Positions 17,636 to 60,855 of a stretch of 64,000 nucleotides of DNA are shown here, piece by piece. The notes beneath the pieces were generated by a model. That model saw only the letters and a list, made by a program, of their open reading frames with translations, had not been told where the DNA came from and ran no database searches. Location of the stretch: contig JAHDYR010000067.1 in assembly GCA_019828565.1 (NCBI GenBank), positions 526,244 through 590,243 of the forward strand, read 5' to 3'. Source of the stretch: Carpediemonas membranifera BICM. Lineage: Eukaryota; Protista; Fornicata. The position numbers were made by a program, and so were the translations under genes. Numbering within the stretch: position 1 is the stretch's first letter; each line of letters starts with the position of its first letter.

Positions 17636-17942
17636 CCGTTCACAGTGGCTGATTGCAAACACTGGGTCAAGATCCAAGGGAGATTCGTCTTAAACTCCTT
17701 AAACTCCACCCCCACCCATGCGAGGTGCTGGTTACCCCGGGCTGGTGTCCAGCAGTCAGTGGACGACGGGTTATGGCTTGTATGGTCGACATAGGCAGGG
17801 TGATTGGTAAAACTAACGTCGCGTTCGGCCGCCTTTACTATTCCTGGGAAGTAGGCTCTGGCACATATCTATTTATCGCCTCTCACATTGTCACATGGTC
17901 GACCCGGCGGGCGTGTTGTTACTGAAGGCCCAGGCATGGACT

Positions 17943-23101: not shown

Positions 23102-23139
23102 ATGAAGTCAACCCCACTCCAAGTCTCTCAACCATTTAC

Positions 23140-24107
23140 CCAGGGCCAGGATGCCCAGGGCCCTCGGGGTCTATAGCAACAGCAACGGCTTCACCCACAT
23201 CGCCAGGACGCCCAAGGGTCTGTGGGGCTGGGGCACTAACGGACGTAGCCAGCTTGGGTTCAGGTCAGCATTTGATCAATTTGTCGACCCGACCCGCCTC
23301 AACTTCCCCTCCTGCCCCAACATCGCCGAGCTCGAGGCCAGCCTGCCCCCCTGGGAGAAGCACGGGATGGTGACTGGTGTATCGATAATGAGCGGTCAGA
23401 CGTTCATCCTCACCCCAGCCGACACTGTCATGGCTGGATATGAGGCAAGATGGTTTACCGGCCGTGTCGAGCGGGAGAACAGACACCGCTTCCACCCAGT
23501 CGCTGTGCCATCTGGCTTTGTCCCAGATCACATCATGCATGTGGTAAGTTTATTTACCGCGACTGTCATCCTCTCCATGGGCGATCGGCAGGTGATCAGC
23601 GGGGGCAACGAATGTGGCCAGCTGGGGCTCGGGCACGATGATGAGATGTCTGGCTTCGTCGATCTGCCCTTTGGGGTCGACCGGATCATCACTTCTGCAG
23701 ATGAATTCACCGTCTTCCTCGGTGGCCGCCAGCTGCTCTTCGCTGGCAAAGTTCCCATCCATATCGCCAACTCGGGTCTGCTGCCTGGAAAACGCAGGGA
23801 CTACAAGTGCCTCACACCCACCCCGCTCCGGTTCCCAGAGAGGGTCAAGGGGTTCTGGGGTGACTATGATCGGATGGTCTGGGTGACCGAGGGTGTCACC
23901 CACTATTACGATGATGAGAATCCAACTATGGTTCCAATTGAGGCGACAGCGGTCAACAAATGCCCCCTCCGCTTCTGCGACTCAACCGGCCAGTGGTTCA
24001 AGGTGGTGGGCGAGTCAGATGGGGTGGCTGGGCTGGTCGAGTGCGAGGCGCCCAGAAGGCCGAGAGACATCCTTCCCGTCGATTTCGACCCAAGCCCTCA
24101 ATCATAA
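23140..24107 (+). pseudogene. RCC1-like family copy D, 5'-truncated (318-aa ORF from internal Met 23151)
   Basis: Homology starts abruptly at CAGGGCCAGGATGCCC, ~40 bp after copy C, and ends at TCATAAAC. Confidence 0.8.
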
Positions 24108-25084
24108 ACGTTCTGAAGCTACAGTGAGCTCCTTGCATGTCTCAGGCAGGACGCTGTCCTCGCATGACCAGAGAAGGTTGAGCGACCAAGGAGATGCTGC
24201 AGCCCAGGGCAGACTGTCGGCCAGAGGCCCCGGGCGGTGTCAGTCGCGCGAAACCGGCCGCGCACTTTTGCAGCTTTTTTCACGCAAAAAAGTCAGAGGG
24301 CCGAAGCGCCGCGAACTGAGCGTCTTGCTCGTTCTCATGCTTCGGCGCTCGCTAATGCTTCTGCCTTCAGCCCCTGCATGGGCTGCGCGGCGAGGCACTT
24401 AGCGAAACGCACGTGAACTCCACGGCTGCGAATGCCTTAACGCATCGGGGCTACTCAGACACACGGTATACGCCATCTTTCAAACAACATCAACACGACG
24501 TCGGAAGCCCGTGCCAGGGCGCGCGAGCGCTCGGGAAGGTCTGAGTTCGACAGTGAGCTGCGAGAGGCAGTCGGCACGAAAGCGCCGCTGCAGGCACTAG
24601 AAAGCACCGCCGCTTGCTCGTTGGCAGATGAGGCCCCGGCCGATGCTTAGAGCTCGCGGCGCTGGAAGCCTGCAGAAGTATCTATCAGTCAAATGCGCGG
24701 GGCTGCTGGGCTCTCCCAGTAGAAACACAATTCAGACTACTCTCCGACGTCATCGCTAACCAACATCATCGCACCTCTAAATGCCGCCTGCCGTTGTTGC
24801 CCAGGAGAATGGGTCGCGCGAGAGCACACGCGAGGCCAGACACCGCTGCTTCATGCCAGACCACAAACTCAGCGGAGCTGAGCCTCAAGTCGCCGCAGAT
24901 GAGGGCAGTTCATCAGAGAGACACTCTCTTCGCCAAGTCGGCCCGAACAGATAAATCAGTTTATAAGTCTACTCTCACATATATACAACCGCCACCGCCT
25001 CAAAACTCAACCATCACAAGGAAATCACACGTGACCACCGACCAACCGAATCTTTATCCAGAGATCACCAAATTGACCCAACTC

Positions 25085-33255: not shown

Positions 33256-33861
33256 AATTGATCGGATCACTTTTCTATGTGGCACGCGCATTGCGATAAA
33301 TTTCTCGACTCAGCATTTTCTTCGTTGAGAATCATGCATTCATGTTTCGGGCTGTATTACTGGAATCTACCAAGAACAATCAATCATACCTTGCTTCAAC
33401 GATATAGGTGTTTGCTCACTCGCGATGGAACAAACTAAACTACTCGATCGTGCTTGACTCCATGGCGGGGTGGTCGGCAGACGCGGTGGGGTATATCAGC
33501 CAGCTTGTGGGCAAGTGGTCCGTGGAGGAGATTGTCTTCGGGTCGGAGTCGTGAGTGGGCCGGGCGGCTCGTTTATATGAAGGCTGGACGATGGCTAGGG
33601 TAAATAGCAGGCCTGGTGTTCTTTTATTAGTCTCCTTCGCCATTCTTCCAGGGTCTGGGCGTCTTGGGCCAACCCTTCCACGGGCCTCGTTCTTGGAGTT
33701 GTCGTCTCAACATAGTGGGATTGCCCTTTCGATCGAGCGAGATGGCTGCTGAGTCAGCTACTGCGATGGCCATGCCTCACATCCCTACACCACAGCTGGC
33801 GTCGACGGTCGGCGAGTCGGCAGTCAGAATTTGGGCACCACCGAGCTGAGCGCTGAAACCA

Positions 33862-35478
33862 ATGAGCAGCGCTAGTTCCTCGCCATCTGCCATAAGAGAT
33901 GCGCTGATCACCGCATATCGCGCCTCGCTTGTTGTGACGGCCTCCATCTCCGGGGACATCCCATCCTTGATCCAGTGCGCCTACTCCAGGCACTTCGACG
34001 GGCAGATGCCCTCGATCCACAACGACAAGGGCACTTCTACACCAACCAGCGCCCCTTCTCTCGAATCCCTCCTCGCCACGTTCTCCAAGCTCCCCCCTCT
34101 CAAACCAACCGCGCAAGCCCTCCTCGACCGCGCCCGCTCGATCCTCACCAGCGGCCCCCCGCTGTCCATGAACGTCGAGCTCGCGGATGGCGAGGAGCTC
34201 CCGGTCGCCATGCACACGCTGAACCAGGGCGCGGTGTGGGCGTGTCTGGTGGGTGGCGGGGCCAACCCCGACCTCGAGGACAGGGTGCTGAAGGAGGCTC
34301 GAGAGAAGGAGCCAGATGATATTGAGATGCACGACAAGATCCGCAACGCTCTCGCCCCCGAGGCCAAGTGCCTCTGGTTCCTCTGCCGCAAGTTCTTCTT
34401 CACGTTTAATGTCGCAGAGAAGGACGGCGAGTGCTGTCAGTTCACTGGACGCTACAATGGCTACCACCATCGCATGTACATGGGCCGCCTCTTCCTGCTC
34501 GACACTTACTATCACACCGCCCTCACCAGGGCCAGGATGCCCAGGGCCCTCGAGGTCTACAGCAACTGGTTCACCCACATCGCCAGGACACCCAAGGGTC
34601 TGTGGGGCTGGCGGCAGAACGGGTTTGGCCAGCTGGGGTTCAAGTCGTCTAAGGTCGACCCGACCCGCCTTACCTTCCCCGCCTGCGCCGAGGTCGCTGA
34701 GCTCGAGGCCAGCCTGCCCCCCTGGGAGAAGCACGGGATGGTGACTGGTGTATCGATAATGAGCGGTCAGACGTTCATCCTCACCCCAGCCGACACTGTC
34801 ATGGCTGGATATGAGGCAAGATCGTTTACCGGCCGTGTCGAGCGGGAGAACAGACCCCTCTTCCACCCAGTCGCTGTGCCATCTGGCTTTGTCCCAGATC
34901 ACATCATGCATGTGGTAAGTTTATTTACCGCGACTGTCATCCTCTCCATGGGCGATCGGCAGGTGATCAGCGGGGGCAACGAATGTGGCCAGCTGGGGCT
35001 CGGGCACGATGATGAGATGTCTGGCTTCGTCGATCTGCCCTTTGGGGTCGACCGGATCATCACTTCTGCAGATGAATTCACCGTCTTCCTCGGTGGCCGC
35101 CAGCTGCTCTTCGCTGGCAAAGTTCCCATCCATATCGCCCAGTCGGGCCTGCTGCCTGGAAAACGCAGGGACTACAAGTGCCTCACACCCACCCCGCTCC
35201 GGTTCCCAGAGAGGGTCAAGGGGTTCTGGGGTGACTATGATCGGATGGTCTGGGTGACCGAGGGTGTCACCCACTATTACGATGATGAGAATCGTACTAT
35301 GGTTCCAATTGAGGCGACAGCGTTCAACAAATGCCCCCTCCGCTTCCGTGACTCAACTGGCCAGTGGTTCAAGGTGGTGGGCGAGTCAGATGGGGTGGCT
35401 GAGCTGGTCGAGTGCGAGGCGCCCAAAAGGCGGACAGAGATCATCCCGGTCGACGTTGACCCAACCCCTCAATCATAA
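33862..35478 (+). CDS. RCC1-like family copy E, intact (538 aa)
   Basis: Uninterrupted ORF from MSSASSS to PQS; RCC1 motifs LWGWRQNGFGQLG and GGNECGQLGLGH. Confidence 0.85.
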   Translation: MSSASSSPSAIRDALITAYRASLVVTASISGDIPSLIQCAYSRHFDGQMPSIHNDKGTSTPTSAPSLESLLATFSKLPPLKPTAQALLDRARSILTSGPPLSMNVELADGEELPVAMHTLNQGAVWACLVGGGANPDLEDRVLKEAREKEPDDIEMHDKIRNALAPEAKCLWFLCRKFFFTFNVAEKDGECCQFTGRYNGYHHRMYMGRLFLLDTYYHTALTRARMPRALEVYSNWFTHIARTPKGLWGWRQNGFGQLGFKSSKVDPTRLTFPACAEVAELEASLPPWEKHGMVTGVSIMSGQTFILTPADTVMAGYEARSFTGRVERENRPLFHPVAVPSGFVPDHIMHVVSLFTATVILSMGDRQVISGGNECGQLGLGHDDEMSGFVDLPFGVDRIITSADEFTVFLGGRQLLFAGKVPIHIAQSGLLPGKRRDYKCLTPTPLRFPERVKGFWGDYDRMVWVTEGVTHYYDDENRTMVPIEATAFNKCPLRFRDSTGQWFKVVGESDGVAELVECEAPKRRTEIIPVDVDPTPQS

Positions 35479-35654
35479 ACATGCTGCTGCACGACTGCGC
35501 CTTCTCAGCTTGGGAGAACGATAGGGTGACGACTCCTGCTTGTTCCCAGTGGACTTCTTAACAAGTCAGCATCCGTTCGTCCATCCCCATTGTGTCCGGG
35601 TCACAACTGTACATCTTTACCGGCTAATCAACATAAACCATAAACTACGGGCCT

Positions 35655-38793: not shown

Positions 38794-40361
38794 CTACTTT
38801 ATGTTGATTAGAGGGTCAACGTCGACGGGAATGATCTCTGTCCGCCATATGGGTACCTCGCATTCGACCAGCCCAGCCACCCCATCTGACTCGCCCACCA
38901 CCTTGAACCACTGGCCGGTTGAGTCGCAGAAGCGGAGGGGGCATTTGTTGACCGCTGTCGCCTCAATTGGAACCATAGTTGGATTCTCATCATCGTAATA
39001 GTGGGTGACACCCTCGGTCACCCAGACCATCCGATCATAGTCACCCCAGAACCCCTTGACCCTCTCTGGGAACCGGAGCGGGGTGGGTGTGAGGCACTTG
39101 TAGTCCCTGCGTTTTCCAGGCAGCAGACCCGACTGGGCGATATGACGGGTTACCTTGCCAGCGAAGAGCAGCTGGCGGCCACCGAGGAAGACGTTGAATT
39201 CATCTGCAGAAGTGATGATCCGGTCGACCCCAAAGGGCAGATCGACGAAGCCAGACATCTCATCATCGTGCCCGAGCCCCAGCTGGCCACATTCGTTGCC
39301 CCCGCTGATCATCTGCCGATCGCCCATGGAGAGGATGACAGTCGCGGTAAATAAACTTACCACATGCACGATGTGATCTGGGACAAAGCCAGATGGCACA
39401 GCGACTGGGTGGAAGCGGTGTCTGTTCTCCCGCTCGACACGGCCGGTAAACAATCTTGCCTCATATCCAGCCATGACAGTGCCGACTGGGGTGAGGATGA
39501 ACGTCCGATCACAAATCAGCGACACATCAGTCACCATCCTGTGCTTCTCCCAGAGGGGCAGGCTGGCCTCGAGCTCGGCGACCTCGGCGCAGGCGGGGAA
39601 GGTAAGGCGGGTCGGGTCGACCTTAGACGACTCGAACCCCAGCTGGCCATGACCGCTATCCCCCCAGCCCCACAGACCCTTGGGCGTCCTGGCGATGTGG
39701 GTGAGGTCGTCGCTGTAGACCTCGAGGGCCCTGGGCATCCTGGCCCTGGTGAAGGCGGTGTGATAGTCCGAGTTAAACATGAAGAGGCGGCCCATGTACA
39801 TGCGGTGGTGGTAGCCATTGTAGCGTCCAGTGAACTGACAGCACTCGCCGTCCTTCTCTGCCACATTCAGCGTGAAGAAGAACTTGCGGCAGAGGAACCA
39901 GAGGCACTTGGCCTCGGGGGCGAGAGCGTTGCGGATCTTGTCGTGCTCGAGGTCGGGGTTGGCCCCGCCACCCACCAGACACGCCCACACCGCGCCCTGG
40001 TTCAGCGTGTGCAGGGCGACCGGGAGCTCCTGCCCCGCCACCAGCTCGACGTTCATGGACAGCGGGGGGCCGCTGGTGAGGATCGAGCGGGCGCGGTCGA
40101 GGAGGGCTTGCGCGGTTGGTTTGAGAGGGGGCAGCTTGGAGAGCGCGGCGAGGAGGGATTCGAGAGAAGGGGCACTCGCTGGTGCAGAAGTGCTCTTGTC
40201 GTTGTGGATCGAGGGCATCTGCCCGTCGAAGTGCCTGGAGTAGGCGCACTGGATCAAGGATGGGATGTACCAGAGATGGAGGCCGTCACAACAAGCGAGG
40301 CGCGATATGCGGTGATCAGCGCATCTCTGATGGCAGATGGCGAGGAACTAGCGCTGCTCAT
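38794..40361 (-). pseudogene. RCC1-like family copy F (early frameshift; variable cassette deleted in frame)
   Basis: ATG at 40361; same 1-nt deletion TCTGGTACATCC as copy A (~40268); reads NPDLE-HDKIR where other copies have ~17 extra residues. Confidence 0.8.
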
Positions 40362-40810
40362 TGGTTTCAGCGCTCAGTTCGGTGGTGCCCAAATTCTGAC
40401 TGACGACTCGCCGACCGCCGACGCCAGCTGCGGTGTCGCGAGTTGAGGCATGAACCTCGGAGCAGCCGACTCAGCTGGCGCACATGCCTGATCGAGAGTG
40501 CATTATAGGCCCCACACGAACACGATTGCATCAACAGGCCGTCTATATCGGCCGTTTAGACAGCTTTGTGCCGATTCCCCGACCAAGATGTGAGACTGGC
40601 AATCTTCTGACCATCGTGATGTCGGCTTGAGGAATAGTCGACTGAACACTTTGTCGCTCCACTGATTGGATGGAGAGCGAGGCCAGCCAGACAGTGTATA
40701 CTCACGTGTCATGAGAGCCAGCTCTACCATGACCCTGCCTGACCCCTGGATCGCGTGACAATGCGTTAGCAGCATCGCTGCCGGCATTTTCATTTATTCA
40801 CATAACTCGA

Positions 40811-44347: not shown

Positions 44348-44552
44348 TGCGATTAATAAATATGGATAATAATTTATTACTGCCCATGGAGGATTGTTTA
44401 TGGCACTATAGGGTCGTTGGGCTGCTGTTCGTCGCGTGCTATCACTCAAGACGCAGCCACGCCATTGGCTAATGCTTCCAAGCTGGAAGCCGCTCGGGGC
44501 TCTTGTCATTCGTCTCACACGGGTCGCCAGTCTGTTTGCGATTCAAAAAAGT

Positions 44553-46186
44553 TTATGATTGAGGGCTTGGGTCGAAATCGACGGGAATGATGTCTTCCCG
44601 CCTTATGGGTACCTCGCACTCGACCAGCTCAGCCACCCCATCTGACTCACCCACCACCTTGAACCACTGGCCAGTTGAGTCACGGAAGCGGAGGGGGTCT
44701 TCAACATTAAACGCTGTCGCCTCAATTGGAACCATAGTACGATTCTCATCCTCGTAATAGTGGGTGACACCCTCAGTGACCCAGACCATCCGATCATAGT
44801 CACCCCAGAACCCCTTGACCCTCTCTGGGAACCGGAGCGGGGTGGGTGTGAGGCACTTGTAGTCCCTGCGTTTTCCAGGCAGCAGACCCGACTGGGCGAT
44901 ATGACGGGTTACCTTGCCAGCGAAGAGCAGCTGGCGGCCACCGAGGAAGACGGTGAATTCATCTGCAGAAGTGATGATCCGGTCGACCCCAAAGGGCAGA
45001 TCGACGAAGCCAGACATCTCATCATCGTGCCCGAGCCCCAGCTGGCCACATTCGTTGCCCCCGCTGATCATCTGCCGATCGCCCATGGAGAGGATGACAG
45101 TCGCGGTAAATAAACTTACCACATGCATGATGTGATCTGGGACAAAGCCAGATGGCACAGCGACTGGGTGGAAGCGGTGTCTGTTCTCCCGCTCGACACG
45201 GCCGGTAAACGATCTTGCCTCATATCCAGCCATGACAGTGTCGGCTGGGGTGAGGATGAACGTCTGACCGCTCATTATCGATACACCAGTCACCATCCCG
45301 TGCTTCTCCCAGGGGGGCAGGCTGGCCTCGAGCTCGGCGATGTTGGGGCAGGAGGGGAAGTTGAGGCGGGTCGGGTCGACAAATTGATCAAATGCTGACC
45401 TGAACCCAAGCTGGCTACGTCCGTTAGTGCCCCAGCCCCACAGACCCTTGGGCGTCCTGGCGATGTGGGTGAAGCCGTTGCTGTTGCTATAGACCTCGAG
45501 GGCCCTGGGCATCCTGGCCCTGGTGAAGGCGGTGTGATAGTCCGAGTTAAACATGAAGAGGCGGCCCATGTACATGCGGTGGTGGTAGCCATTGTAGCGT
45601 CCAGTGAACTGATAGAACTCGCCGTCCTTCTCGGCGACGTTCAGCGTGAAGAAGAACTTGCGGCAGAGGAACCAGAGCACTTGGCCTCGGGGGTGAGAGC
45701 GTTGCGGATCTTGTCGTGTGTCTCCCGATCACGAGGCCACCTCATTAGATTATCATCCAGCACCCTGTCCTCGAGGTCGGGGTTGGCCCCGCCGCCCACC
45801 AGACACGCCCACACCGCGCCCTGGTTCAGCGTGTGCATGGCGACCGGGAGCTCCTCGCCATCCGCGAGCTCGACGTTCATGGACAGCGGGGGGCCGCTGG
45901 TGAGGATCGAGCGGGCGCGGTCGAGGAGGGCTTGCGCGGTTGGTTTGAGAGGGGGGAGCTTGGAGAACGTGGCGAGGAGGGATTCGAGAGAAGGGGCGCT
46001 GGTTGGTGTAGAAGTGCCCTTGTCGTTGTGGATCGAGGGCATCTGCCCGTCGAAGTGCCTGGAGTAGGCGCACTGGATCAAGGATGGGATGTCCCCGGAG
46101 ATGGAGGCCGTCACAACAAGCGAGGCGCGATATGCGGTGATCAGCGCATCTCTTATGGCAGATGGCGAGGAACTAGCGCTGCTCAT
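44553..46186 (-). pseudogene. RCC1-like family copy G (1-nt frameshift ~45677)
   Basis: Split into ORFs 45641-46186 and 44553-45680; GCCAAGTGCTCTGG versus intact GCCAAGTGCCTCTGG. Confidence 0.8.
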
Positions 46187-46674
46187 TGGTTTCAGCGCTC
46201 AGTTCGGTGGTGCCCAAATTCTGACTGCCGACTCGCCGACCGCCGACGCCAGCTGGGAGGTCGGGAGATGAGACGTGCAGCCTCACTGGAGATGAGGCCT
46301 GACCACACCCGCGACACACTCCAACAGTGTCCCAGCTAACCCCACCTGGGTAGACCCACACGGCTCGAGAAACGCCTCACTCAGTCGACCACACAAGCGG
46401 ACTGACAGTAGCATGGCTGGGCTGCAGGAGGTAGAATGAGGAGCTATGGCCTGTGTTCCGCCTACTCGAGGTGGTCGGGGATCAGGATCCTCTCGAGGCT
46501 AGTCCGCCCTCGTGTGAGAAGCGTGCTTCTGCTGATTGGACCAGATGAGAAATGGCCTGGACGAAGCGGAGCAGTGACCAGTCGTTGCCAGTCGACTTTC
46601 GACGCCAGTCTTGATGAAGGAACAATAATCGTGAAAATGCCCTGTCACGACAAGAACCTTGTACCTTCGACACA

Positions 46675-48099
46675 ATGAACAATCCCTGGTATCCAGTCCT
46701 TGGAATACCAGCAGAATTCTTTCTCAAAGAGAGAGACGAGGCTGTTTCCATGCTGACGAGGACTCTGGGCATCTCTGTCGTCGATCTAGGCGAGGTACAC
46801 TTCTTTGCAGCGCTCAAGCAAGCGCATGCAGTGCCAAATAGTTCATCTGAGCTCACGATGACCAATGTTATGTGCATCTTGAAAGACGGCGAAGAGCGCC
46901 ACCACGAGCCGCTCAATACGCTAACAGGCGCCGCCAGCATCCAAATATCGTGTTCAAACCTCCATGCTGGCTTTCATTCCCTCTGCAAGTGGGAGATGGC
47001 GCGCTTTGGTCGACCCAAGGCAACGCTTGCCCTGGAGGCACCCTCGTCGCACAGGCAGAACTCCACCCTAGGCACGTTGACTGGCGACATAGAAGTGCTG
47101 AACACATGCATGGAACATGAGGAGATGATGTTCAAAGAGGCACCAACATGCCGCTTCTTCCACGGCGTTTCAGTCCTGTTCGCCAATGCCCCACAGTCAG
47201 CAGACGGCGAGATCCTCAGTGCATTCTTCACAGAACATCTCAAGTGTCGTGTGGCCAGTTGCTTCACCATGCCCGACCTGGCCGGGGCTGGGATCCTCAT
47301 CTTGCCACTCGCCGAGGACCTCGAGGCGTTGCTCGGCAACCTGCCACCTTTTCAAGGACGCAAGCTTTTTCTGATGCCTCTCGAGCACTTACGCGCCTTC
47401 CCGCCCTCTCTCCTCGTCAACGGAGTCCCCAAGGAGACCATACTCTCCTGTCCCGCCCTTCGCACTGAGCGGCAGGTCGCTGACTTCAAAGCCGAGGGTC
47501 TTGGTCTTGTTATCATGTATGACTCGGCCGAGACTGTCGAGTCAATCGAGCAAGACATGTTCTTCTCGCCCGAGCAGTTTACGGATGGGCAGCACTCACT
47601 CGCTGTCGATTTCTACAAGGGCACTCCTGAGGGCATGGTTGTCGCCCAAGACGTCGAATCCGTCCAGGACCCAGCCCCTGAACCAGAACTAGAGCCTGAG
47701 CCCGAGCCCGAGAGGACATACAGCTCACTCGCCCTCGACACCAGAGACGTCTACCTCCTCGACCGCGACTCGCTCCTGTTCACGACCCGCACCGAGTTCC
47801 CCCTCTACCGGGCCGACTCAAACACCAGGCCGACCCCCATTGGCGTGATGGCCCACACACTCGGCTGTATCCAGGCCGATGAGTACGTCACAGCCAAGGG
47901 GCCAGAGCGTCTCATGCCGTCGAGGATGCGGAACTATCAGTATAGCATGGCCGACATCGACGAGGACGGCATGCTTGCGCACTTTCCCGAGGGCCACCTC
48001 GAAGGGTCAGTCCGCGTCCAGCAGCAGGACTGCCTCGTGGTAGTTTCCAAGCTCAGTAATAAGCACCCTGGGGAGTCCCGTACAGCCAAAAGTTTATGA
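46675..48099 (+). pseudogene. PARG-like (DUF2263/TIGR02452-type) gene copy 1, truncated before the catalytic loop
   Basis: Nearly identical to copy 3 up to KH(P/H)GE; the stop is supplied by the antisense 3' end of RCC1 copy H; lacks 12 bp (LSIG) present in copies 2 and 3. Confidence 0.7.
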
Positions 48100-49728
48100 T
48101 TGAGGGGTTGGGTCGAAATCAACCGGGATGATGTCTTCCCGCCTTATGGGTACCTCGCACTCGACCAGCTCAGCCACCCCATCTGACTCACCCACCACCT
48201 TGAACCACTGGCCGGTGGAGTCGCGGAAGCAGAGGGGGTCTTCAACATTAAACGCTGTCGCCTCAATTGGAACCATAGTACGATTCTCATCCTCGTAATA
48301 GTGGGTGACACCCTCGGTCACCCAGACCATCCGATCATAGTCACCCCAGAACCCCTTGACCCTCTCTGGGAACCGGAGCGGGGTGGGTGTGAGGCACTTG
48401 TAGTCCCTGCGTTTTCCAGGCAGCAGACCCGACTGGGCGATATGACGGGTTACCTTGCCAGCGAAGAGCAGCTGGCGGCCACCGAGGAAGACGTTGAATT
48501 CATCTGCAGAAGTGATGATCCGGTCGACCCCAAAGGGCAGATCGACGAAGCCAGACATCTCATCATCGTGCCCGAGCCCCAGCTGGCCACATTCGTTGCC
48601 CCCGCTGATCATCTGCCGATCGCCCATGGAGAGGATGACAGTCGCGGTAAATAAACTTACCACATGCATGATGTGATCTGGGACAAAGCCAGATGGCACA
48701 GCGACTGGGTGGAAGCGGTGTCTGTTCTCCCGCTCGACACGGCCGGTAAACGATCTTGCCTCATATCCAGCCATGACAGTGTCGGCTGGGGTGAGGATGA
48801 ACGTCTGACCGCTCATTATCGATACACCAGTCACCATCCCGTGCTTCTCCCAGGGGGGCAGGCTGGCCTCGAGCTCGGCGATGTTGGGGCAGGAGGGGAA
48901 GTTGAGGCGGGTCGGGTCGACAAATTGATCAAATGCTGACCTGAACCCAAGCTGGCTACGTCCGTTAGTGCCCCAGCCCCACAGACCCTTGGGCGTCCTG
49001 GCGATGTGGGTGAAGCCGTTGCTGTTGCTATAGACCTCGAGGGCCCTGGGCATCCTGGCCCTGGTGAAGGCGGTGTGATAGTCCGAGTTAAACATGAAGA
49101 GGCGGCCCATGTATATGCGATGGTGGTAGCCATTGTAGCGTCCAGTGAACTGACAGCACTCGCCGTCCTTCTCTGCGACATTAAACGTGAAGAAGAACTT
49201 GCGGCAGAGGAACCAGAGGCACTTGGCCTCGGGGGCGAGAGCCTTGCGGATCTTGTCGTAAATCGTGGTACCACGTGACCCCAGCACTTGGGCCTCTTGC
49301 AGCACCCTGTCCTCGAGGTATGGGTTGGCCCCGCCACCCACCAGACACGCCCACACCGCGCCCTGGTTCAGCGTGTGCATGGCGACCGGGAGCTCCTCGC
49401 CATCCGCGAGCTCAACGTTCATTGACAGCGGGGGGCCGCTGGTGAGGATCGAGCGGGCGCGGTCGAGGAGGGCTTGCGCGGTTGGTTTGAGAGGGGGGAG
49501 CTTGGAGAACGTGGCGAGGAGGGATTCGAGAGAAGGGGCGCTGGTTGGTGTAGAAGTGCCCTTGTCGTTGTGGATCGAGGGCATCTGCCCGTCGAAGTGC
49601 CTGGAGTAGGCGCACTGGATCAAGGATGGGATGTCCCCGGAGATGGAGGCCGTCACAACAAGCGAGGCGCGATATGCGGTGATCAGCGCATCTCTTATGG
49701 CAGATGGCGAGGAACTAGCGCTGCTCAT
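48094..49728 (-). CDS. RCC1-like family copy H, intact (544 aa)
   Basis: Uninterrupted ORF with WGWGTNGRSQLG and GGNECGQLGLGH. Confidence 0.85.
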   Translation of the reverse strand: MSSASSSPSAIRDALITAYRASLVVTASISGDIPSLIQCAYSRHFDGQMPSIHNDKGTSTPTSAPSLESLLATFSKLPPLKPTAQALLDRARSILTSGPPLSMNVELADGEELPVAMHTLNQGAVWACLVGGGANPYLEDRVLQEAQVLGSRGTTIYDKIRKALAPEAKCLWFLCRKFFFTFNVAEKDGECCQFTGRYNGYHHRIYMGRLFMFNSDYHTAFTRARMPRALEVYSNSNGFTHIARTPKGLWGWGTNGRSQLGFRSAFDQFVDPTRLNFPSCPNIAELEASLPPWEKHGMVTGVSIMSGQTFILTPADTVMAGYEARSFTGRVERENRHRFHPVAVPSGFVPDHIMHVVSLFTATVILSMGDRQMISGGNECGQLGLGHDDEMSGFVDLPFGVDRIITSADEFNVFLGGRQLLFAGKVTRHIAQSGLLPGKRRDYKCLTPTPLRFPERVKGFWGDYDRMVWVTEGVTHYYEDENRTMVPIEATAFNVEDPLCFRDSTGQWFKVVGESDGVAELVECEVPIRREDIIPVDFDPTPQS

Positions 49729-50216
49729 TGGTTTCAGCGCTCAGCTCGGTGGTGCCCAAATTCTGACTGCCGACTCGCCGACCGCCGACGCCAGCTGGGA
49801 GGTCGGGAGATGAGACGTGCAGCCTCACTGGAGATGAGGCCTGACCACACCCGCGACACACTCCAACAGTGTCCCAGCTAACCCCACCTGGGTAGACCCA
49901 CACGGCTCGAGAAACGCCTCACTCAGTCGACCACACAAGCGGACTGACAGTAGCATGGCTGGGCTGCAGGAGGTAGAATGAGGAGCTATGGCCTGTGTTC
50001 CGCCTACTCGAGGTGGTCGGGGATCAGGATCCTCTCGAGGCTAGTCCGCCCTCGTGTGAGAAGCGTGCTTCTGCTGATTGGACCAGATGAGAAATGGCCT
50101 GGACGAAGCGGAGCAGTGACCAGTCGTTGCCAGTCGACTTTCGACGCCAGTCTTGATGAAGGAACAATAATCGTGAAAATGCCCTGTCACGACAAGAACC
50201 TTGTACCTTCGACACA

Positions 50217-51653
50217 ATGAACAATCCCTGGTATCCAGTCCTTGGAATACCAGCAGAATTCTTTCTCAAAGAGAGAGACGAGGCTGTTTCCATGCTGACG
50301 AGGACTCTGGGCATCTCTGTCGTCGATCTAGGCGAGGTACACTTCTTTGCAGCGCTCAAGCAAGCGCATGCAGTGCCAAATAGTTCATCTGAGCTCACGA
50401 TGACCAATGTTATGTGCATCTTGAAAGACGGCGAAGAGCGCCACCACCTGAGCATCGGCGAGCCGCTCAATACGCTAACAGGCGCCGCCAGCATCCAAAT
50501 ATCGTGTTCAAACCTCCATGCTGGCTTTCATTCCCTCTGCAAGTGGGAGATGGCGCGCTTTGGTCGACCCAAGGCAACGCTTGCCCTGGAGGCACCCTCG
50601 TCGCACAGGCAGAACTCCACCCTAGGCACGTTGACTGGCGACATAGAAGTGCTGAACACATGCATGGAACATGAGGAGATGATGTTCAAAGAGGCACCAA
50701 CATGCCGCTTCTTCCACGGCGTTTCAGTCCTGTTCGCCAATGCCCCACAGTCAGCAGACGGCGAGATCCTCAGTGCATTCTTCACAGAACATCTCAAGTG
50801 TCGTGTGGCCAGTTGCTTCACCATGCCCGACCTGGCCGGGGCTGGGATCCTCATCTTGCCACTCGCCGAGGACCTCGAGGCGTTGCTCGGCAACCTGCCA
50901 CCTTTTCAAGGACGCAAGCTTTTTCTGATGCCTCTCGAGCACTTACGCGCCTTCCCGCCCTCTCTCCTCGTCAACGGAGTCCCCAAGGAGACCATACTCT
51001 CCTGTCCCGCCCTTCGCACTGAGCGGCAGGTCGCTGACTTCAAAGCCGAGGGTCTTGGTCTTGTTATCATGTATGACTCGGCCGAGACTGTCGAGTCAAT
51101 CGAGCAAGACATGTTCTTCTCGCCCGAGCAGTTTACGGATGGGCAGCACTCACTCGCTGTCGATTTCTACAAGGGCACTCCTGAGGGCATGGTTGTCGCC
51201 CAAGACGTCGAATCCGTCCAGGACCCAGCCCCTGAACCAGAACTAGAGCCTGAGCCCGAGCCCGAGAGGACATACAGCTCACTCGCCCTCGACACCAGAG
51301 ACGTCTACCTCCTCGACCGCGACTCGCTCCTGTTCACGACCCGCACCGAGTTCCCCCTCTACCGGGCCGACTCAAACACCAGGCCGACCCCCATTGGCGT
51401 GATGGCCCACACACTCGGCTGTATCCAGGCCGATGAGTACGTCACAGCCAAGGGGCCAGAGCGTCTCATGCCGTCGAGGATGCGGAACTATCAGTATAGC
51501 ATGGCCGACATCGACGAGGACGGCATGCTTGCGCACTTTCCCGAGGGCCACCTCGAAGGGTCAGTCCGCGTCCAGCAGCAGGACTGCCTCGTGGTAGTTT
51601 CCAAGCTCAGTAATAAGCACCCTGGGGAGTCCCGTACAGCCAAAAGTTTATGA
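50217..51653 (+). pseudogene. PARG-like gene copy 2, truncated before the catalytic loop
   Basis: 478-aa ORF with the same junction as copy 1. Confidence 0.7.
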
Positions 51654-53302
51654 TTGAGGGGTTGGGTCGAAATCAACCGGGATGATGTCTTCCCGCCTTA
51701 TGGGTACCTCGCACTCGACCAGCTCAGCCACCCCATCTGACTCACCCACCACCTTGAACCACTGGCCGGTGGAGTCGCGGAATAATTGGATGCAATTGTC
51801 ATTGATCAATGTTCTATGGCATGCCATAGCCTCAAAGGGCACACAGATCTGGTCGTCGTGTTCGTTGTCGCACAAATGAGTGCGGCCCTCGGTCACCCAG
51901 ACCATCCGATCATAGTCACCCCAGAACCCCTTGACCCTCTCTGGGAACCGGAGCGGGGTGGGTGTGAGGCACTTGTAGTCCCTGCGTTTTCCAGGCAGCA
52001 GACCCGACTGGGCGATATGACGGGTTACCTTGCCAGCGAAGAGCAGCTGGCGGCCACCGAGGAAGACGTTGAATTCATCTGCAGAAGTGATGATCCGGTC
52101 GACCCCAAAGGGCAGATCGACGAAGCCAGACATCTCATCATCGTGCCCGAGCCCCAGCTGGCCACATTCGTTGCCCCCGCTGATCATCTGCCGATCGCCC
52201 ATGGAGAGGATGACAGTCGCGGTAAATAAACTTACCACATGCATGATGTGATCTGGGACAAAGCCAGATGGCACAGCGACTGGGTGGAAGCGGTGTCTGT
52301 TCTCCCGCTCGACACGGCCGGTAAACGATCTTGCCTCATATCCAGCCATGACAGTGTCGGCTGGGGTGAGGATGAACGTCTGACCGCTCATTATCGATAC
52401 ACCAGTCACCATCCCGTGCTTCTCCCAGGGGGCAGGCTGGCCTCGAGCTCGGCGATGTTGGGGCAGGAGGGGAAGTTGAGGCGGGTCGGGTCGACAAATT
52501 GATCAAATGCTGACCTGAACCCAAGCTGGCTACGTCCGTTAGTGCCCCAGCCCCACAGACCCTTGGGCGTCCTGGCGATGTGGGTGAAGCCGTTGCTGTT
52601 GCTATAGACCTCGAGGGCCCTGGGCATCCTGGCCCTGGTGAAGGCGGTGTGATAGTCCGAGTTAAACATGAAGAGGCGGCCCATGTACATGCGATGGTGG
52701 TAGCCATTGTAGCGTCCAGTGAACTGACAGCACTCGCCGTCCTTCTCTGCGACATTAAACGTGAAGAAGAACTTGCGGCAGAGGAACCAGAGGCACTTGG
52801 CCTCGGGGGCGAGAGCCTTGCGGATCTTGTCGTGTGTCTCGGTCCTGCGTGGCTCCTCCTCTTGAGCCTCCTTCAGCACATTGTCCTCGAGGTATGGGTT
52901 GGCCCCGCCACCCATGAGACACGCCCACACCGCGCCCTGGTTCAGCGTGTGCATGGCGACCGGGAGCTCCTCGCCATCCGCGAGCTCAACGTTCATTGAC
53001 AGCGGGGGGCCGCTGGTGAGGATCGAGCGGGCGCGGTCGAGGAGGGCTTGCGCGGTTGGTTTGAGAGGGGGGAGCTTGGAGAACGTGGCGAGGAGGGATT
53101 CGAGAGAAGGGGCGCTGGTTGGTGTAGAAGTGCCCTTGTCGTTGTGGATCGAGGGCATCTGCCCGTCGAAGTGCCTGGAGTAGGCGCACTGGATCAAGGA
53201 TGGGATGTCCCCGGAGATGGAGGCCGTCACAACAAGCGAGGCGCGATATGCGGTGATCAGCGCATCTCTTATGGCAGATGGCGAGGAACTAGCGCTGCTC
53301 AT
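51648..53302 (-). pseudogene. RCC1-like family copy I (frameshift in G-run ~52428, possibly a sequencing error)
   Basis: ORFs 52406-53302 and 51648-52412; G5 instead of G6 in CCAGGGGGGCAGG. Confidence 0.75.
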
Positions 53303-53790
53303 TGGTTTCAGCGCTCAGCTCGGTGGTGCCCAAATTCTGACTGCCGACTCGCCGACCGCCGACGCCAGCTGGGAGGTCGGGAGATGAGACGTGCAGCCTC
53401 ACTGGAGATGAGGCCTGACCACACCCGCGACACACTCCAACAGTGTCCCAGCTAACCCCACCTGGGTAGACCCACACGGCTCGAGAAACGCCTCACTCAG
53501 TCGACCACACAAGCGGACTGACAGTAGCATGGCTGGGCTGCAGGAGGTAGAATGAGGAGCTATGGCCTGTGTTCCGCCTACTCGAGGTGGTCGGGGATCA
53601 GGATCCTCTCGAGGCTAGTCCGCCCTCGTGTGAGAAGCGTGCTTCTGCTGATTGGACCAGATGAGAAATGGCCTGGACGAAGCGGAGCAGTGACCAGTCG
53701 TTGCCAGTCGACTTTCGACGCCAGTCTTGATGAAGGAACAATAATCGTGAAAATGCCCTGTCACGACAAGAACCTTGTACCTTCGACACA

Positions 53791-55290
53791 ATGAACAATC
53801 CCTGGTATCCAGTCCTTGGAATACCAGCAGAATTCTTTCTCAAAGAGAGAGACGAGGCTGTTTCCATGCTGACGAGGACTCTGGGCATCTCTGTCGTCGA
53901 TCTAGGCGAGGTACACTTCTTTGCAGCGCTCAAGCAAGCGCATGCAGTGCCAAATAGTTCATCTGAGCTCACGATGACCAATGTTATGTGCATCTTGAAA
54001 GACGGCGAAGAGCGCCACCACCTGAGCATCGGCGAGCCGCTCAATACGCTAACAGGCGCCGCCAGCATCCAAATATCGTGTTCAAACCTCCATGCTGGCT
54101 TTCATTCCCTCTGCAGAGTGGGAGATGGCGCGCTTTGGTCGACCCAAGGCAACGCTTGCCCTGGAGGCACCCTCGTCGCACAGGCAGAACTCCACCCTAG
54201 GCACGTTGACTGGCGACATAGAAGTGCTGAACACATGCATGGAACATGAGGAGATGATGTTCAAAGAGGCACCAACATGCCGCTTCTTCCACGGCGTTTC
54301 AGTCCTGTTCGCCAATGCCCCACAGTCAGCAGACGGCGAGATCCTCAGTGCATTCTTCACAGAACATCTCAAGTGTCGTGTGGCCAGTTGCTTCACCATG
54401 CCCGACCTGGCCGGGGCTGGGATCCTCATCTGCCACTCGCCGAGGACCTCGAGGCGTTGCTCGGCAACCTGCCACCTTTCCAAGGACGCAAGCTTTTTCT
54501 GATGCCTCTCGAGCACTTACGCGCCTTCCCGCCCTCTCTCCTCGTCAACGGAGTCCCCAAGGAGACCATACTCTCCTGTCCCGCCCTTCGCACTGAGCGG
54601 CAGGTCGCTGACTTCAAAGCCGAGGGTCTTGGTCTTGTTATCATGTATGACTCGGCCGAGACTGTCGAGTCAATCGAGCAAGACATGTTCTTCTCGCCCG
54701 AGCAGTTTACGGATGGGCAGCACTCACTCGCTGTCGATTTCTACAAGGGCACTCCTGAGGGCATGGTTGTCGCCCAAGACGTCGAATCCGTCCAGGACCC
54801 AGCCCCTGAACCAGAACTAGAGCCTGAGCCCGAGCCCGAGAGGACATACAGCTCACTCGCCCTCGACACCAGAGACGTCTACCTCCTCGACCGCGACTCG
54901 CTCCTGTTCACGACCCGCACCGAGTTCCCCCTCTACCGGGCCGACTCAAACACCAGGCCGACCCCCATTGGCGTGATGGCCCACACACTCGGCTGTATCC
55001 AGGCCGATGAGTACGTCACAGCCAAGGGGCCAGAGCGTCTCATGCCGTCGAGGATGCGGAACTATCAGTATAGCATGGCCGACATCGACGAGGACGGCAT
55101 GCTTGCGCACTTTCCCGAGGGCCACCTCGAAGGGTCAGTCCGCGTCCAGCAGCAGGACTGCCTCGTGGTAGTTTCCAAGCTCAGTAATAAGCACCATGGG
55201 GAGTGTATCGCGTGCCTCAACATGGCTAATGAGTACCGCGTCGGCGGGGGCTACAACACGGGCGCCCGGGCACAAGAGGAGGAGCTCATC
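53791..55290 (+). pseudogene. PARG-like gene copy 3, retaining the catalytic-loop signature, fused in frame to RCC1 fragment J
   Basis: HTLGCIQADEYVTAKG, VRVQQQDCLVVVSKL, CLNMANEYRVGGGYNTGARAQEEEL (GGG-X7-QEE). +1 (~54116) and -1 (~54431) indels relative to copies 1 and 2. Confidence 0.78.
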
Positions 55291-55689
55291 AACGTCTTCC
55301 TCGGTGGCCGCCAGCTTCTCTTCGCTGGTCGAGTTCCCCTCCATATTGCCCAGTCGGGTCTGCTGCCTGGAAAACGCAGGGACTACAAGTGCCTCACACC
55401 CACCCCGCTCCGGTTCCCAGAGAGGGTTAAGCGGTTCTGGGTCGATGATGGTCAGATCGTCTGGGTGACCGAGGGTGTCACCCACTATTACGAGGATGAG
55501 AATCGTACTATAGTCCCCATTGAGGCGATAGCGTTCAACAAATGCCCCCTCCGCTTCTGCGACTCCACCGGCCAGTGGTTCAAGGTGGTGGGTGAGTCAG
55601 ATGGGGTGGCTGAGCTGGTCGAGTGCGAGGTACCCATAAGGCGGGAAGACATCATTCCCGTCGATTTCGACCAAAGCCCTCAATCATAA
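55289..55689 (+). pseudogene. RCC1-like family copy J, 3' fragment
   Basis: Starts at (TC)AACGTCTTCCTCGGT (NVFLGGRQLLFAG) and ends PQS-TAAAC. Confidence 0.85.
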
Positions 55690-56142
55690 ACAAAAGTGCG
55701 GGCAAAATTGGTGCCTCTCGAGTTTCACATGAGCTCACGGGCACCCTGGAGTGCCGAGGCGCGGGCGAGACCCCAGCGGGACCGGGTCGCCGTGCTAAGA
55801 GGTTGAATCTGGTGTGAGTTTCGGATATGAATCGAGGTGATTCGATCCGGGAGAATCGATTGCGCAATCGACTGAAAATGGAGTCAGACCAAGAGAAATG
55901 GCGGAAGAGACCGCCGGACAGATAAGAGATAAATGTCCAACCCTCCTTGGGTAACAGTGTATATGTTGTGTGGCCAGCAAAATCTGGCCAATCATTTCAG
56001 TCAACGTCACCCGAGTCCACCGTGTCACATTCAAAGGCACGCATGTAGAGAGGGCCAACAGTGCATTTAATCGACACACTGGACAACGATATTGCACAGA
56101 TCGTTAAACTTCACGAAGCGCGGCAGTGAGTGCTCCTTGCAT

Positions 56143-56374
56143 GTCGATGATGGTCTGGGTGACCGAGGGCCGCAGCCATCTGTCTGACGACTACCGCCAG
56201 TGTACAGCCAGTGTCCCCATTGAGGCTACGGCATATGGCACGACAAGCAATGTCCCCTGTTTCCGCGACTCAGCCGGCCAGTGGTTTGAGGCGGCTGATG
56301 TGTCAGATGTCACGTGTGGGGTACCCGGTTGGTCGATGGAGATCTCACCAGTCGCCGTCGACCCAGCGTTTTAG
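56143..56374 (+). pseudogene. RCC1-like family copy K, short 3' fragment with a copy-A-type tail
   Basis: VWVTEGRSHLSDDYRQCTASVPIEATAYGTTSNVPC...GWSMEISPV is nearly identical to the 3' end of copy A, ~49 kb away. Confidence 0.85.
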
Positions 56375-56753
56375 TTATAAACCCTGTTAACATCTCGGAG
56401 GAAGATCAAGTGACTTCGTCGCGAGTGTGCTGACCGTGGGACGAGGTCCTCCCCCAGGAGTGGCTGGTCCCGGCTGGTCGGATGTAGATATGCAGCAGTA
56501 TGTAAATTACCTAAACTTCGTTTAGCGTGACTGGGCAGGCGACCTGTGGACGCAGGGCGGGGGCCTCGACTCAACGCGGGGACGACGAGCGACCGCCCGC
56601 ATTCCGTACGAACAACTAAAGACTGGGCCGGGCAGTGATCGTTGCCGTAATGCTGCCAAGCTCTATCACTTGAGACGTTCAATAATCATTCATCGCCCAA
56701 ACAATTGGGAGAAGTACACCAAGTTCACAAAGTCAGGAAACGACGTTACCACA

Positions 56754-58805: not shown

Positions 58806-59060
58806 GCCGCGGTTTGTAAAGATGCTGTTTATTGGCAGTGTCTCGTGTTTAGGGTGTCATGCGCGGGCAAGAAGCGGACGTCGGATCAGATTCGAGCCAT
58901 GCTGATGGTGGCAACTGTGCTGCTGGACAGAGCTCGACGCACAGCTGAAAGGGGCGGACAGGCAGGCCTACCACCGTCATACTCATGCCTCACATCCCTA
59001 CACCGCAGCTGGCGTCGGCGGTCGGCGAGTCGGCAACCACCGAGCTGAGCGCTGAGACCA

Positions 59061-60618
59061 ATGAGCAGCGCTAGTTCCTCGCCATCTGCCATCAGAGATG
59101 CGCTGATCACCGCATATCGCGCCTCGCTTGTTGCAACGGCCTCCATCTCTGGGGACATCCCATCCTTGATCCAGTGCGCCTACTCCAGGCACTTCAAGAA
59201 GCAGATGCCCTCGATCCACAACGCAGAGAGCACTGATACACCAGCGAGCGCCCCTTCTCTCGAATCCCTCCTCGCCACGCTCTCAGAGATCCCCCCTCTC
59301 AAACCAACCGCGCAAGCCCTCCTCGACCGCGCCCGCTCGATCCTCACCAGCGGCCCCCCGCTGTCCATGAACGTCGAGCTCGCGGATGGCGAGGAGCTCC
59401 CGGTCGCCATGCACACGCTGAACCAGGGCGCGGTGGGGGCGTGTCTGGTGGGCGGCGGGGCCAACCCCGACCTCGAGGACAGGGTGCTCTCACCCCCGAG
59501 GCCAAGTGCTCTGGTTCCTCTGCCGCAAGTTCTTCTTCACGCTGAACGTCGCCGAGAAGGACGGCGAGTTCTATCAGTTCACTGGACGCTACAATGGCTA
59601 CCACCACCGCATGTACATGGGCCGCCTCTTCATGCTCGACACTGACAAGCACACCGCCCTCACCAGGGCCAGGATGCCCAGGGCCCTCGAGGTCTACAGC
59701 GACTGGTTCACCCACATCGCCAGGACGCCCAAGGGTCTGTGGGGCTGGGGGCAGAACGGGTTTGGCCAGCTGGGGTTCGAGTCATTTGAGTTCAACGACC
59801 CGACCCGCCTCACCTTCCCCGCCTGCCCCAAGGTCGCCGAGCTCGAGGCCAGCCTGCCCCTCTGGGAGAAGCACAGGATGGTGACTGCTGTGTCGATAGA
59901 GGATTACCAGACGTTCATCCTCACCCCAGCCGACACTGTCATGGCTGGATATGAGGCAAGATGGTTTACCGGCCGTGTCGAGCGGGAGAACAGACACCGC
60001 TTCCACCCAGTCGCTGTGCCATCTGGCTTTGTCCCAGATCACATCATGCATGTGGTAAGTTTATTTACCGCGACTGTCATCCTCTCCATGGGCGATCGGC
60101 AGATGATCAGCGGGGGCAACGAATGTGGCCAGCTGGGGCTCGGGCACGATGATGAGATGTCTGGCTTCGTCGATCTGCCCTTTGGGGTCGACCGGATCAT
60201 CACTTCTGCAGATGAATTCACCGTCTTCCTCGGTGGCCGCCAGCTGCTCTTCGCTGGCAAAGTTCCCATCCATATCGCCCAGTCGGGCCTGCTGCCTGGA
60301 AAACGCAGGGACTACAAGTGCCTCACACCCACCCCGCTCCGGTTCCCAGAGAGGGTTAAGCGGTTCTGGGTCGATGATGGTCAGATCGTCTGGGTGACCG
60401 AGGGTGTCACCCACTATTACGAGGATGAGAATCGTACTATAGTCCCCATTGAGGCGACAGCGTTCAACAAATGCCCCCTCCGCTTCCGTGACTCAACTGG
60501 CCAGTGGTTCAAGGTGGTGGGTGAGTCAGATGGGGTGGCTGAGCTGGTCGAGTCCGAGGTGGCCGAATCGTGGGAAGACATCATTCCCGTCGATGTCGAC
60601 CAAAGCCCTCAATCATAA
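59061..60618 (+). pseudogene. RCC1-like family copy L (variable cassette deleted, plus frameshift ~59509)
   Basis: ~61-nt deletion relative to copy G between GCT trinucleotides, and the same GCCAAGTGCTCTGG 1-nt deletion as copy G. Confidence 0.8.
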
Positions 60619-60855
60619 ACTTCCTGACCTGTGCTGTGGACCGCACAACACCAAAACTGCCTTTGGAGTCAGATATGTGACACGGGGTTGAGCCACTCGG
60701 ATGATGTCAGCAGGCCGGACTGCAGTTCGTGGATGCCGGAGGAATGCCTTGGCGCGTCAAGGTGACAGAGAGACGAAGGAAGGCAGGTGTGTGCGGGGAA
60801 GGTCTGGAGGCAGCGCCCGGGTCGTTCGCAGGTTAAGGTTCAAAACGAACAAAAT

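What the first reader, a model, noticed from the sequence alone, without database searches (positions are those of the whole stretch)
44551..55204. Internal control: within a recent triplication, block substitutions accumulated only in the RCC1 half
Seen: the ~490-bp spacer and the PARG-like ORF are almost identical in the three units (one 12-bp indel, two 1-bp indels, a few SNPs). In contrast G, H and I carry three different hypervariable cassettes, and I has a wholly different C-terminal block (RTHLCDNEHDDQICVPFEAMACHRTLINDNCIQL, ~51780-51885). Inference: blocks were imported after duplication from donors elsewhere, so diversification is fast, recent and targeted to this family.
Basis: partly seen in the sequence, partly recalled or inferred. 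Interest (0 to 1): 0.8.

Follow-up and report, generated by a model that had tools for sequence, protein, structure and literature searches.

The report
Protist gene family swapping sequence blocks
Three near-identical tandem DNA copies in a free-living protist differ almost only in one gene, whose variant blocks mostly match other members of its large family exactly, so ordinary gene conversion between neighbours likely keeps reshuffling a predicted binding surface, with no sign yet of a special targeting machine.

Summary
Three ~3.55-kb tandem units differ at 137 alignment columns, 121 of them in the RCC1-like half; units 1 and 2 have 0 substitutions in 1,804 bases of the other half and 49 in the family half. 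The import is supported: 3 of 4 variant blocks have exact counterparts in other family genes on the same contig (G cassette P0123, H cassette P0149, I C-block P0123 and P0126), and G shares 149 exact bases, frameshift included, with copy L 14 kb away. Short-read contigs carry the tandem junction and I's cassette exactly. 'Targeted' is not supported: the PARG-like half has no diverged paralogue to copy from, so it is a clock, not a control for targeting. Best reading: ordinary neighbour-biased interlocus gene conversion in a large clustered family. The new part is the family: at least 150 proteins named Carpediemonas membranifera or window-encoded, combinatorially shuffled, variable in 45 of 81 loop residues on one predicted propeller face against 2 of 60 on the other. 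Function is untested.

The parts
44547..48087 (.). Tandem unit 1 (gene G, spacer, truncated PARG-like ORF)
48088..51641 (.). Tandem unit 2 (gene H, spacer, truncated PARG-like ORF)
51642..55204 (.). Tandem unit 3 (gene I, spacer, PARG-like ORF that runs on to 55288)
44553..46186 (-). RCC1-like family copy G, broken by a 1-base deletion near 45677 that copy L shares
48094..49728 (-). RCC1-like family copy H, intact, 544 aa: helical N-terminal part plus predicted RCC1-like propeller (about 190-540)
51648..53302 (-). RCC1-like family copy I, split by a 1-base deletion in a G run at 52427 (possible assembly error)
45718..45757 (-). G cassette; inside an exact 87-aa match to P0123
49260..49299 (-). 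H cassette; inside an exact 25-aa match to P0149
52834..52881 (-). I cassette; no exact match among 248 proteins held, looks like a patchwork of P0121- and P0006-type alleles; matched exactly by a 120-base contig
51783..51885 (-). I C-terminal block; inside exact 82- and 85-aa matches to P0123 and P0126; matched exactly by a 163-base contig
45552..45700 (-). 149-base exact tract shared by G and copy L (59486-59634), including the frameshift
46187..46674 (.). Spacer of unit 1 (also 49729-50216 and 53303-53790); first 86 bases are family leader
46675..48099 (+). PARG-like ORF, unit 1, 474 aa, ends before the catalytic motif; lacks 12 bases present in units 2 and 3
50217..51653 (+). PARG-like ORF, unit 2, 478 aa, ends before the catalytic motif; matched by a 1,579-base contig that crosses the junction
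53791..55288 (+). PARG-like ORF, unit 3, two 1-base indels (possible errors); reaches the catalytic motif, then fuses in frame to fragment J
55289..55691 (+). Family fragment J (last 134 aa), inverted relative to G, H, I
48077..48087 (.). 11-base insert of unknown origin at the tandem junction (same at 51631-51641)
58983..60627 (+). Family copy L: shares the tract with G, lacks the cassette through a 61-base deletion
33748..35493 (+). Family copy E: exact runs of 408 bases with G and 361 with H and I
38813..40475 (-). Family copy F: exact runs of 376 bases with H and 358 with I; cassette deleted in frame
17924..19388 (-). Family copy B (homologous part): exact run of 158 bases with H next to the cassette
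6733..8362 (-). Family copy A
22589..24115 (+). Family fragments C and D, both lacking the 5' part
56149..56382 (+). Family fragment K, 94% identical to the 3' end of A

Best explanation
Three near-identical tandem units differ almost only in their RCC1-like gene, most of whose variant blocks occur letter for letter in other family copies, and these blocks were likely exchanged by ordinary homology-driven gene conversion among neighbouring paralogues. Steps: (1, shown) the family is large, clustered and a patchwork of about ten variable segments between near-identical frames. (2, inferred) A unit of family gene plus truncated PARG-like gene was duplicated through a junction with an 11-base insert, then amplified to three, probably by unequal recombination. 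(3, inferred from exact in-register matches) Long identical frames let a break in one copy be repaired from another copy on the same contig, carrying across whichever variable segment lies between; tracts also end inside cassettes and make new alleles. (4, shown for the proteins searched) The PARG-like half has no diverged relative, so it can only be homogenised; no targeting is needed. (5, predicted) The swapped segments line one face of a propeller, so each swap would change binding specificity of an intracellular binding or sensor protein; selection for that is possible but not shown.
For: Exact counterparts for 3 of 4 blocks at three other loci on a contig of the same recorded length as the window's own proteins; these are not window gene models (242 of 479, 104 of 479 and 16 of 256 of their 20-mers are in the window). 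G and L share 149 exact bases with a frameshift, a tract that runs far outside the cassette and is harmful. 22 of 33 scattered differences have both alleles in other window copies, chance 0.076. Neighbouring sites among 8 window copies are more compatible than in 2,000 of 2,000 permutations. Nearest neighbour lies on the same contig for 83 of 153 labelled proteins, 15.3 expected; exact runs of 60 aa or more in 133 of 1,164 same-contig pairs against 14 of 10,464 others. Allele table shows free combination of segments. PARG-like search returns only the window's 2 proteins among 2,343 candidates. Junction, I block and I cassette are matched without difference by contigs of runs X1 and X2, which may be one data set. 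45 of 81 against 2 of 60 variable loop residues on the two predicted faces.
Against: Donors were matched as proteins, not DNA; no whole genome was held. The I cassette has no exact match among 248 proteins. No record spans the triplication, so the count of three units rests on the assembly. Neighbour similarity can also come from local duplication without conversion. dN/dS on the variable face is 1.06 (bootstrap 0.67-1.87), not above 1. The rough conversion-to-mutation ratio (about 130 per site) is higher than the roughly tenfold reported for human duplicates (abstract of 10.1101/135152) unless divided by the number of donors. The PARG search covers only 263-839 aa proteins, so pseudogene donors are not excluded.
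Confidence: 0.75

Rival explanations
1. A dedicated or strongly boosted diversifier acts on this family (for example breaks or RNA-DNA hybrids directed to these genes, possibly with transcript or cDNA templates), as in parasite antigenic variation.
For: At least 2 tracts separate H and I against at most 3 point changes; segments recombine freely; variability sits on one predicted face. PMC8516963 (sections 8 and 12) reports loss of Rad51A, ORC and NHEJ and proposes recombination-dependent replication with RNA or cDNA templates. An unchecked scan note reports LINE elements in this genome.
Against: Tracts cross cassette edges, carry a frameshift and touch fragments and synonymous sites; no expression site or boundary motif was seen; the control half lacks donors; about 29 labelled local copies bring the rough ratio to about 4-5 per donor.
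Confidence: 0.13
2. Most differences arose during the duplications themselves, by template switching or unequal crossing-over between already different paralogues, so the units were born chimaeric and little accumulated afterwards.
For: G differs from H and I together at most scattered sites, in two long zones; junction with an 11-base insert and an inverted fragment J beside the array fit template-switch repair.
Against: H and I share the same junction and 3' end yet differ by two short internal blocks embedded in identical flanks (longest identical run 802 bases); the H match to P0149 is only 25 aa long. Both need short double-ended exchanges. This rival is compatible with the best explanation for the G versus H/I part.
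Confidence: 0.07
3. The triplication is partly an assembly artefact: the true array has two units, or blocks from separate loci were stitched or polished into it.
For: Unit 3 carries changes that contigs do not support; the contigs show only one form of the PARG-like ORF; repeats are hard to polish with short reads (established knowledge).
Against: The junction is in a 1,579-base contig with 144 bases on the far side and no difference; I's cassette, unknown elsewhere, is in a contig exactly; the family-wide mosaic is seen outside the array; the species is reported as haploid (PMC8516963, section 10 passage), which argues against allele stitching if the window is from this species.
Confidence: 0.05

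Closest known systems
Interlocus (non-allelic) gene conversion in clustered recognition genes, e.g. Arabidopsis RPP8 NLR family (10.1101/694240, abstract seen)
   Same: Tandem duplicates plus nearby paralogues share variation through conversion and crossing-over; intracellular proteins with a variable binding region.
   Different: No NB-ARC or LRR domain was found; the scaffold is a predicted RCC1-like propeller; at least 150 members dispersed between housekeeping genes; selection and ligand are unknown.
Segmental gene conversion of Trypanosoma brucei VSG (PMC3708902, abstract seen) and Babesia ves genes (PMC7485966, search listing only)
   Same: Mosaic genes built in register from segments of other family members, broken copies included.
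   Different: Free-living host with no adaptive immune pressure; no hydrophobic leader or membrane segment in H; exchange appears to fix in the genome among many copies, with no single expression site seen.
Baseline non-allelic gene conversion in human duplicates (10.1101/135152, abstract seen: mean tract 250 bp, about tenfold the point mutation rate)
   Same: Tract scale (exact runs of 75-260 bases around the blocks) and dependence on high identity.
   Different: Here it diversifies rather than homogenises, because many donors carry different segments in identical frames.
RCC1-like domain proteins (UVR8, HERC RLDs, RPGR, WBSCR16) and giant-virus RCC1-repeat proteins
   Same: Predicted propeller fold: Foldseek E about 1e-10 to 1e-12, VIA Z 13.9 with rmsd 6.0 over 289 residues.
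   Different: 11-18% identity; an N-terminal helical region without a matched fold; no sequence relative found in viral contigs.

Membership tests
Interlocus gene conversion in a multigene family | In-register tracts identical to a paralogue inside otherwise different genes | tested here: met
   DNA: G-L 149 bases with frameshift. Protein: 87, 25, 82 and 85 aa exact runs.
Interlocus gene conversion in a multigene family | Conflicting relationships along the gene | tested here: met
   Compatibility test 0 of 2,000 permutations as low as observed, 191 informative sites, 8 copies; allele table.
Interlocus gene conversion in a multigene family | Non-reciprocal transfer with known donor and recipient | not testable with these tools
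   One assembly, no outgroup strain.
Antigenic variation by segmental gene conversion (VSG, ves) | Mosaics from a donor archive | tested here: met
Antigenic variation by segmental gene conversion (VSG, ves) | Surface-exposed product (signal peptide, membrane or lipid anchor) | tested here: not met
   Hydropathy only, protein H: highest 19-residue mean 1.53, inside a predicted strand region; N-terminal maximum 1.19. No dedicated predictor was run.
Antigenic variation by segmental gene conversion (VSG, ves) | Single expression site, one variant expressed per cell | tested here: inconclusive
   Contigs of many paralogues lie on G, but RNA status is a guess and the data are from a population.
Plant NLR-type resistance clusters | NB-ARC and LRR domains | tested here: not met
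   No such Pfam family among the 19 matched by 89 members at E up to 1.
Plant NLR-type resistance clusters | Diversifying selection on the binding face | tested here: inconclusive
   dN/dS 1.06 (0.67-1.87) on a-b and c-d loops, 1.41 (0.74-3.37) in the cassette, 0.69 (0.55-0.87) overall.
Diversity-generating retroelement | Adenine-specific changes relative to a template repeat | tested here: not met
   24 of 58 pairwise cassette differences involve no adenine; counterparts are exact.
Diversity-generating retroelement | Reverse transcriptase gene nearby | tested here: inconclusive
   None among 29 ORFs scanned of 147 listed.
RCC1-like domain proteins | RCC1 repeat profile match | tested here: met
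   69 of 89 members match PF00415 at E up to 1, best 6.8e-09; H itself scores 20.9 against a cut-off of 21.7, D and L pass.
RCC1-like domain proteins | Beta-propeller of four-stranded blades | tested here: met
   Predicted model pLDDT 89.1; top 10 VIA rows, Z 10.3-13.9, headed by RCC1-like structures. Blade number not counted from coordinates.
RCC1-like domain proteins | Ran exchange-factor or other binding activity | not testable with these tools
   Needs an assay.
F-box plus RCC1-repeat proteins (giant viruses) | F-box before the propeller | tested here: inconclusive
   A resemblance recalled from memory; no Pfam F-box hit in 89 members; model of residues 107-206 was weak (pLDDT 64.9) and matched nothing above Z 5.1.
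Microbial-type PARG (PF10021, TIGR02452) | Catalytic glycine-rich and QEE motif | tested here: met
   Unit 3 only, aligned to 3sig; units 1 and 2 end before it.
Microbial-type PARG (PF10021, TIGR02452) | Complete macrodomain | tested here: not met
   Profile positions 2-108 of 266 only; the rest is replaced by fragment J.

The most novel reading that the evidence does not exclude
A free-living protist that lacks Rad51A and ORC keeps a combinatorial, intracellular recognition repertoire on an RCC1-like propeller, which its recombination-dependent replication reshuffles faster than point mutation and which selection by viruses, prey or symbionts maintains: an immune-like repertoire on a scaffold and in a lineage where none is described.
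Probability: 0.25. Interest if true: 0.8.

Novelty: new variant of a known kind. Interest (0 to 1): 0.52.

Why it matters
The process is known, but the setting is not: the searches run found no paper on this family. It gives a direct, dated read-out of ectopic recombination in a eukaryote proposed to replicate by recombination (PMC8516963): a young triplication with a donor-less half as clock and identifiable donors. That makes the open question of how error-prone such replication is testable by resequencing clones. If the one-face variability reflects ligand recognition, it is a new kind of receptor repertoire in a free-living protist.

Tried and rejected
No whole genome was held, so donors were sought as proteins. 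The region search for the I block found no candidate among cluster representatives of 156-497 aa; the exact matches were cluster members of 498 aa seen through. An exact 27-base search of metagenome contigs gave 0 matches. Viral contigs gave 75 pattern matches and 0 confirmed relatives. No RNA holder listed; runs X3 and X4 laid 1 record each. The spacer, the left flank and 55204-55288 had no contig cover, which proves nothing. I first read the H/I 3' flank as copied from copy E; that was a display artefact and refuted it. The F-box idea found no support; the Atlas search on P0001 residues 100-200 gave one feature hit at 0.76 and no nameable structure. dN/dS split by amino-acid variability (1.28 against 0.34) is circular and was replaced by the loop-based split. 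Longest-run permutation values ignore rate variation and were not used as evidence. A DGR was rejected. Retroposition of the 5'-truncated fragments is unsupported: no A-tail follows them. PMC2614187 passages did not settle which loops share a face. Scan notes near this place, by words and by sequence held nothing on this family.
Full report
Setting. The window is intron-poor eukaryotic DNA of about 57% G+C. Of the 120 relatives of gene H listed (131 found), 117 are named Carpediemonas membranifera by their sources and 3 are the window's own; I treat the organism as that species or a very close one. Twelve whole or partial family copies (A-L) cover 15,462 of 64,000 bases, scattered between ordinary genes. 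A profile search returned 147 clusters at 50% identity with E up to 1e-30, some of them unrelated RCC1-repeat proteins.

Observation. The three units are real in the sequence. After dropping 11 columns beyond unit-3 homology, 121 of 137 differing columns lie in the family half. Substitutions, family half against spacer plus PARG-like half, are 49 vs 0, 90 vs 2 and 61 vs 2 over about 1,726 and 1,804 bases. Short-read contigs of runs X1 and X2 (equal in size, possibly one data set, RNA status guessed) hold a 1,579-base record that equals the unit-2 PARG-like ORF and continues 144 bases into the H/I-type 3' end without a difference, a 163-base record identical to the I block and a 120-base record identical to the I cassette. 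They do not carry three of the unit-3 changes, and most depth at 52427 carries the base that I lacks, so these may be assembly errors.

Donors. P0123 shares an exact 87-aa run with G that includes the cassette, and an exact 82-aa run with I that includes the C-block; P0126 shares 85 aa with I; P0149 shares 25 aa with H, just the cassette. All three are recorded on a contig of the same length as the window's own proteins, with locus tags on either side of that of P0019, which matches copy A; distances were not measured. They are separate loci, since only 242 of 479, 104 of 479 and 16 of 256 of their 20-mers occur in the window. The I cassette has no exact match among 248 proteins; it reads as a patchwork of the P0121 and P0006 alleles (14 of 18 residues each). 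At DNA level G and copy L share 149 exact bases that include the same 1-base frameshift, and G, H and I share exact runs of 284-408 bases with D, E, F and L. Outside the two blocks, 22 of 33 differing sites have both alleles in other window copies, where a new mutation would do so with probability 0.076. So nearly all divergence in the family half is recycled family variation, not new mutation.

Family-wide pattern. Among 8 near-full copies, 191 informative sites show far more compatibility between neighbours than 2,000 of 2,000 permutations. Ten variable segments scored in 28 local proteins carry 8 to 16 alleles each, in free combination. Exchange or duplication is local: the nearest neighbour is on the same contig for 83 of 153 proteins (15.3 expected) and for 72 of 92 with a neighbour at 70% identity or more.

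Why the control does not show targeting. The PARG-like ORF has no relative among 2,343 candidates other than the window's two representatives (263-839 aa only). Homologous recombination can therefore only copy it from an identical sister. The half is useful as a clock. Counting clusters gives 4 to 9 tracts among the three genes, depending on how G's differences are merged. For H against I alone, my arithmetic is at least 186 converted bases over 2 x 1,726 against at most 3 point changes over 2 x 3,540, a per-site ratio near 130 with very wide error (about 5 to several hundred). With 29 labelled copies on the contig that is 4-5 per donor, the order reported for human duplicates (10.1101/135152, abstract). 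Sister-unit conversion would hide age but should act on both halves, so the ratio is safer than the age (inference). Tracts cross cassette edges, end inside cassettes and carry a frameshift, as untargeted conversion would.

Origin of the array. G and H/I share the 3' end up to a short T run; H and I then have an 11-base insert and the truncated PARG-like gene; no second copy of the insert was found in the window (11-mer offset by one base, plus 7- and 8-mers near the array). On the right, the PARG-like gene reaches its catalytic motif and fuses in frame to inverted fragment J. All three PARG-like ORFs are thus truncated. End joining with insertion or template switching is the likely cause (inference); PMC8516963 reports no NHEJ, intact alternative end joining, loss of Rad51A and two Dmc1 paralogues, and proposes recombination-dependent replication.

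What the protein likely does. The model of H (pLDDT 89.1) has a helical N-terminal region and an RCC1-like propeller. Using conservation from 33 proteins outside the window and my a-d labelling of five blades from the secondary-structure string, 45 of 81 residues in a-b and c-d loops are variable against 2 of 60 in b-c and d-a loops (Fisher p 4e-12). dN/dS is 1.06 on the variable loops, 0.18-0.29 in the helices flanking the cassette and 0.69 overall, so the frame is under purifying selection and the face is at least relaxed. There is no hydrophobic leader or membrane segment. I infer an intracellular binding protein with a constant N-terminal part and a variable surface; its ligand is unknown. 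An F-box was considered and not supported.

Comparison and novelty. It works like interlocus conversion in plant NLR clusters and like mosaic VSG formation, but is a member of neither family. Searches for Carpediemonas with RCC1 gave 0 papers; the genome paper has 0 occurrences of RCC1 in its main text and in 10 supplementary files (file 1 is a scan and was not searched); broader searches listed nothing on this family. Subscription journals and bioRxiv supplements were not searched. Papers seen: PMC8516963, passages, sections 6, 8, 14, part 1 of 2 of section 12, part 1 of 6 of supplement 2; 10.1101/135152, 10.1101/694240 and PMC3708902, abstracts; PMC2614187, passages; PMC7485966, search listing.

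Verdict. Observation confirmed; import from donors supported for 3 of 4 blocks; targeting not shown and not needed. A known process caught in a well-dated snapshot, acting on an apparently undescribed, combinatorially variable protein family. Interest 0.52.

Noticed in passing
window 22589-23088, 23140-24115, 55289-55691, 56149-56382: All 4 partial family copies lack the 5' part and keep the 3' end; no A-tail follows them.
   Followed up: partly
window 53791-55689: If the two unit-3 indels are errors, this is one ORF joining a truncated PARG-like protein, with its catalytic motif, to the last 134 aa of the propeller; no intact PARG-like copy was found.
   Followed up: partly
window 48094-48099 and 51648-51653: The truncated PARG-like ORFs and the family genes converge and overlap by 6 bases; one contig crosses this junction.
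   Followed up: partly
window 38813-40475 and 58983-60627: Copies F and L have each lost the same cassette, by separate deletions of 51 and 61 bases.
   Followed up: partly
window 56149-56382 and 6733-6960: Fragment K is 94% identical to the 3' end of copy A, inverted and 49 kb away.
   Followed up: no
window 42377-44347: Protein with a RanBP1 domain and a long internal repeat rich in F and G, nucleoporin-like, directly left of the array.
   Followed up: no
window 35655-38489: M16 peptidase lying between inverted family copies E and F, an arrangement open to inversion.
   Followed up: no
P0122, P0144, P0028: Gene models that fuse a family member to a RhoGEF protein, to further family copies or to Vps37; may be annotation joins or real fusions like the PARG-J one.
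   Followed up: no
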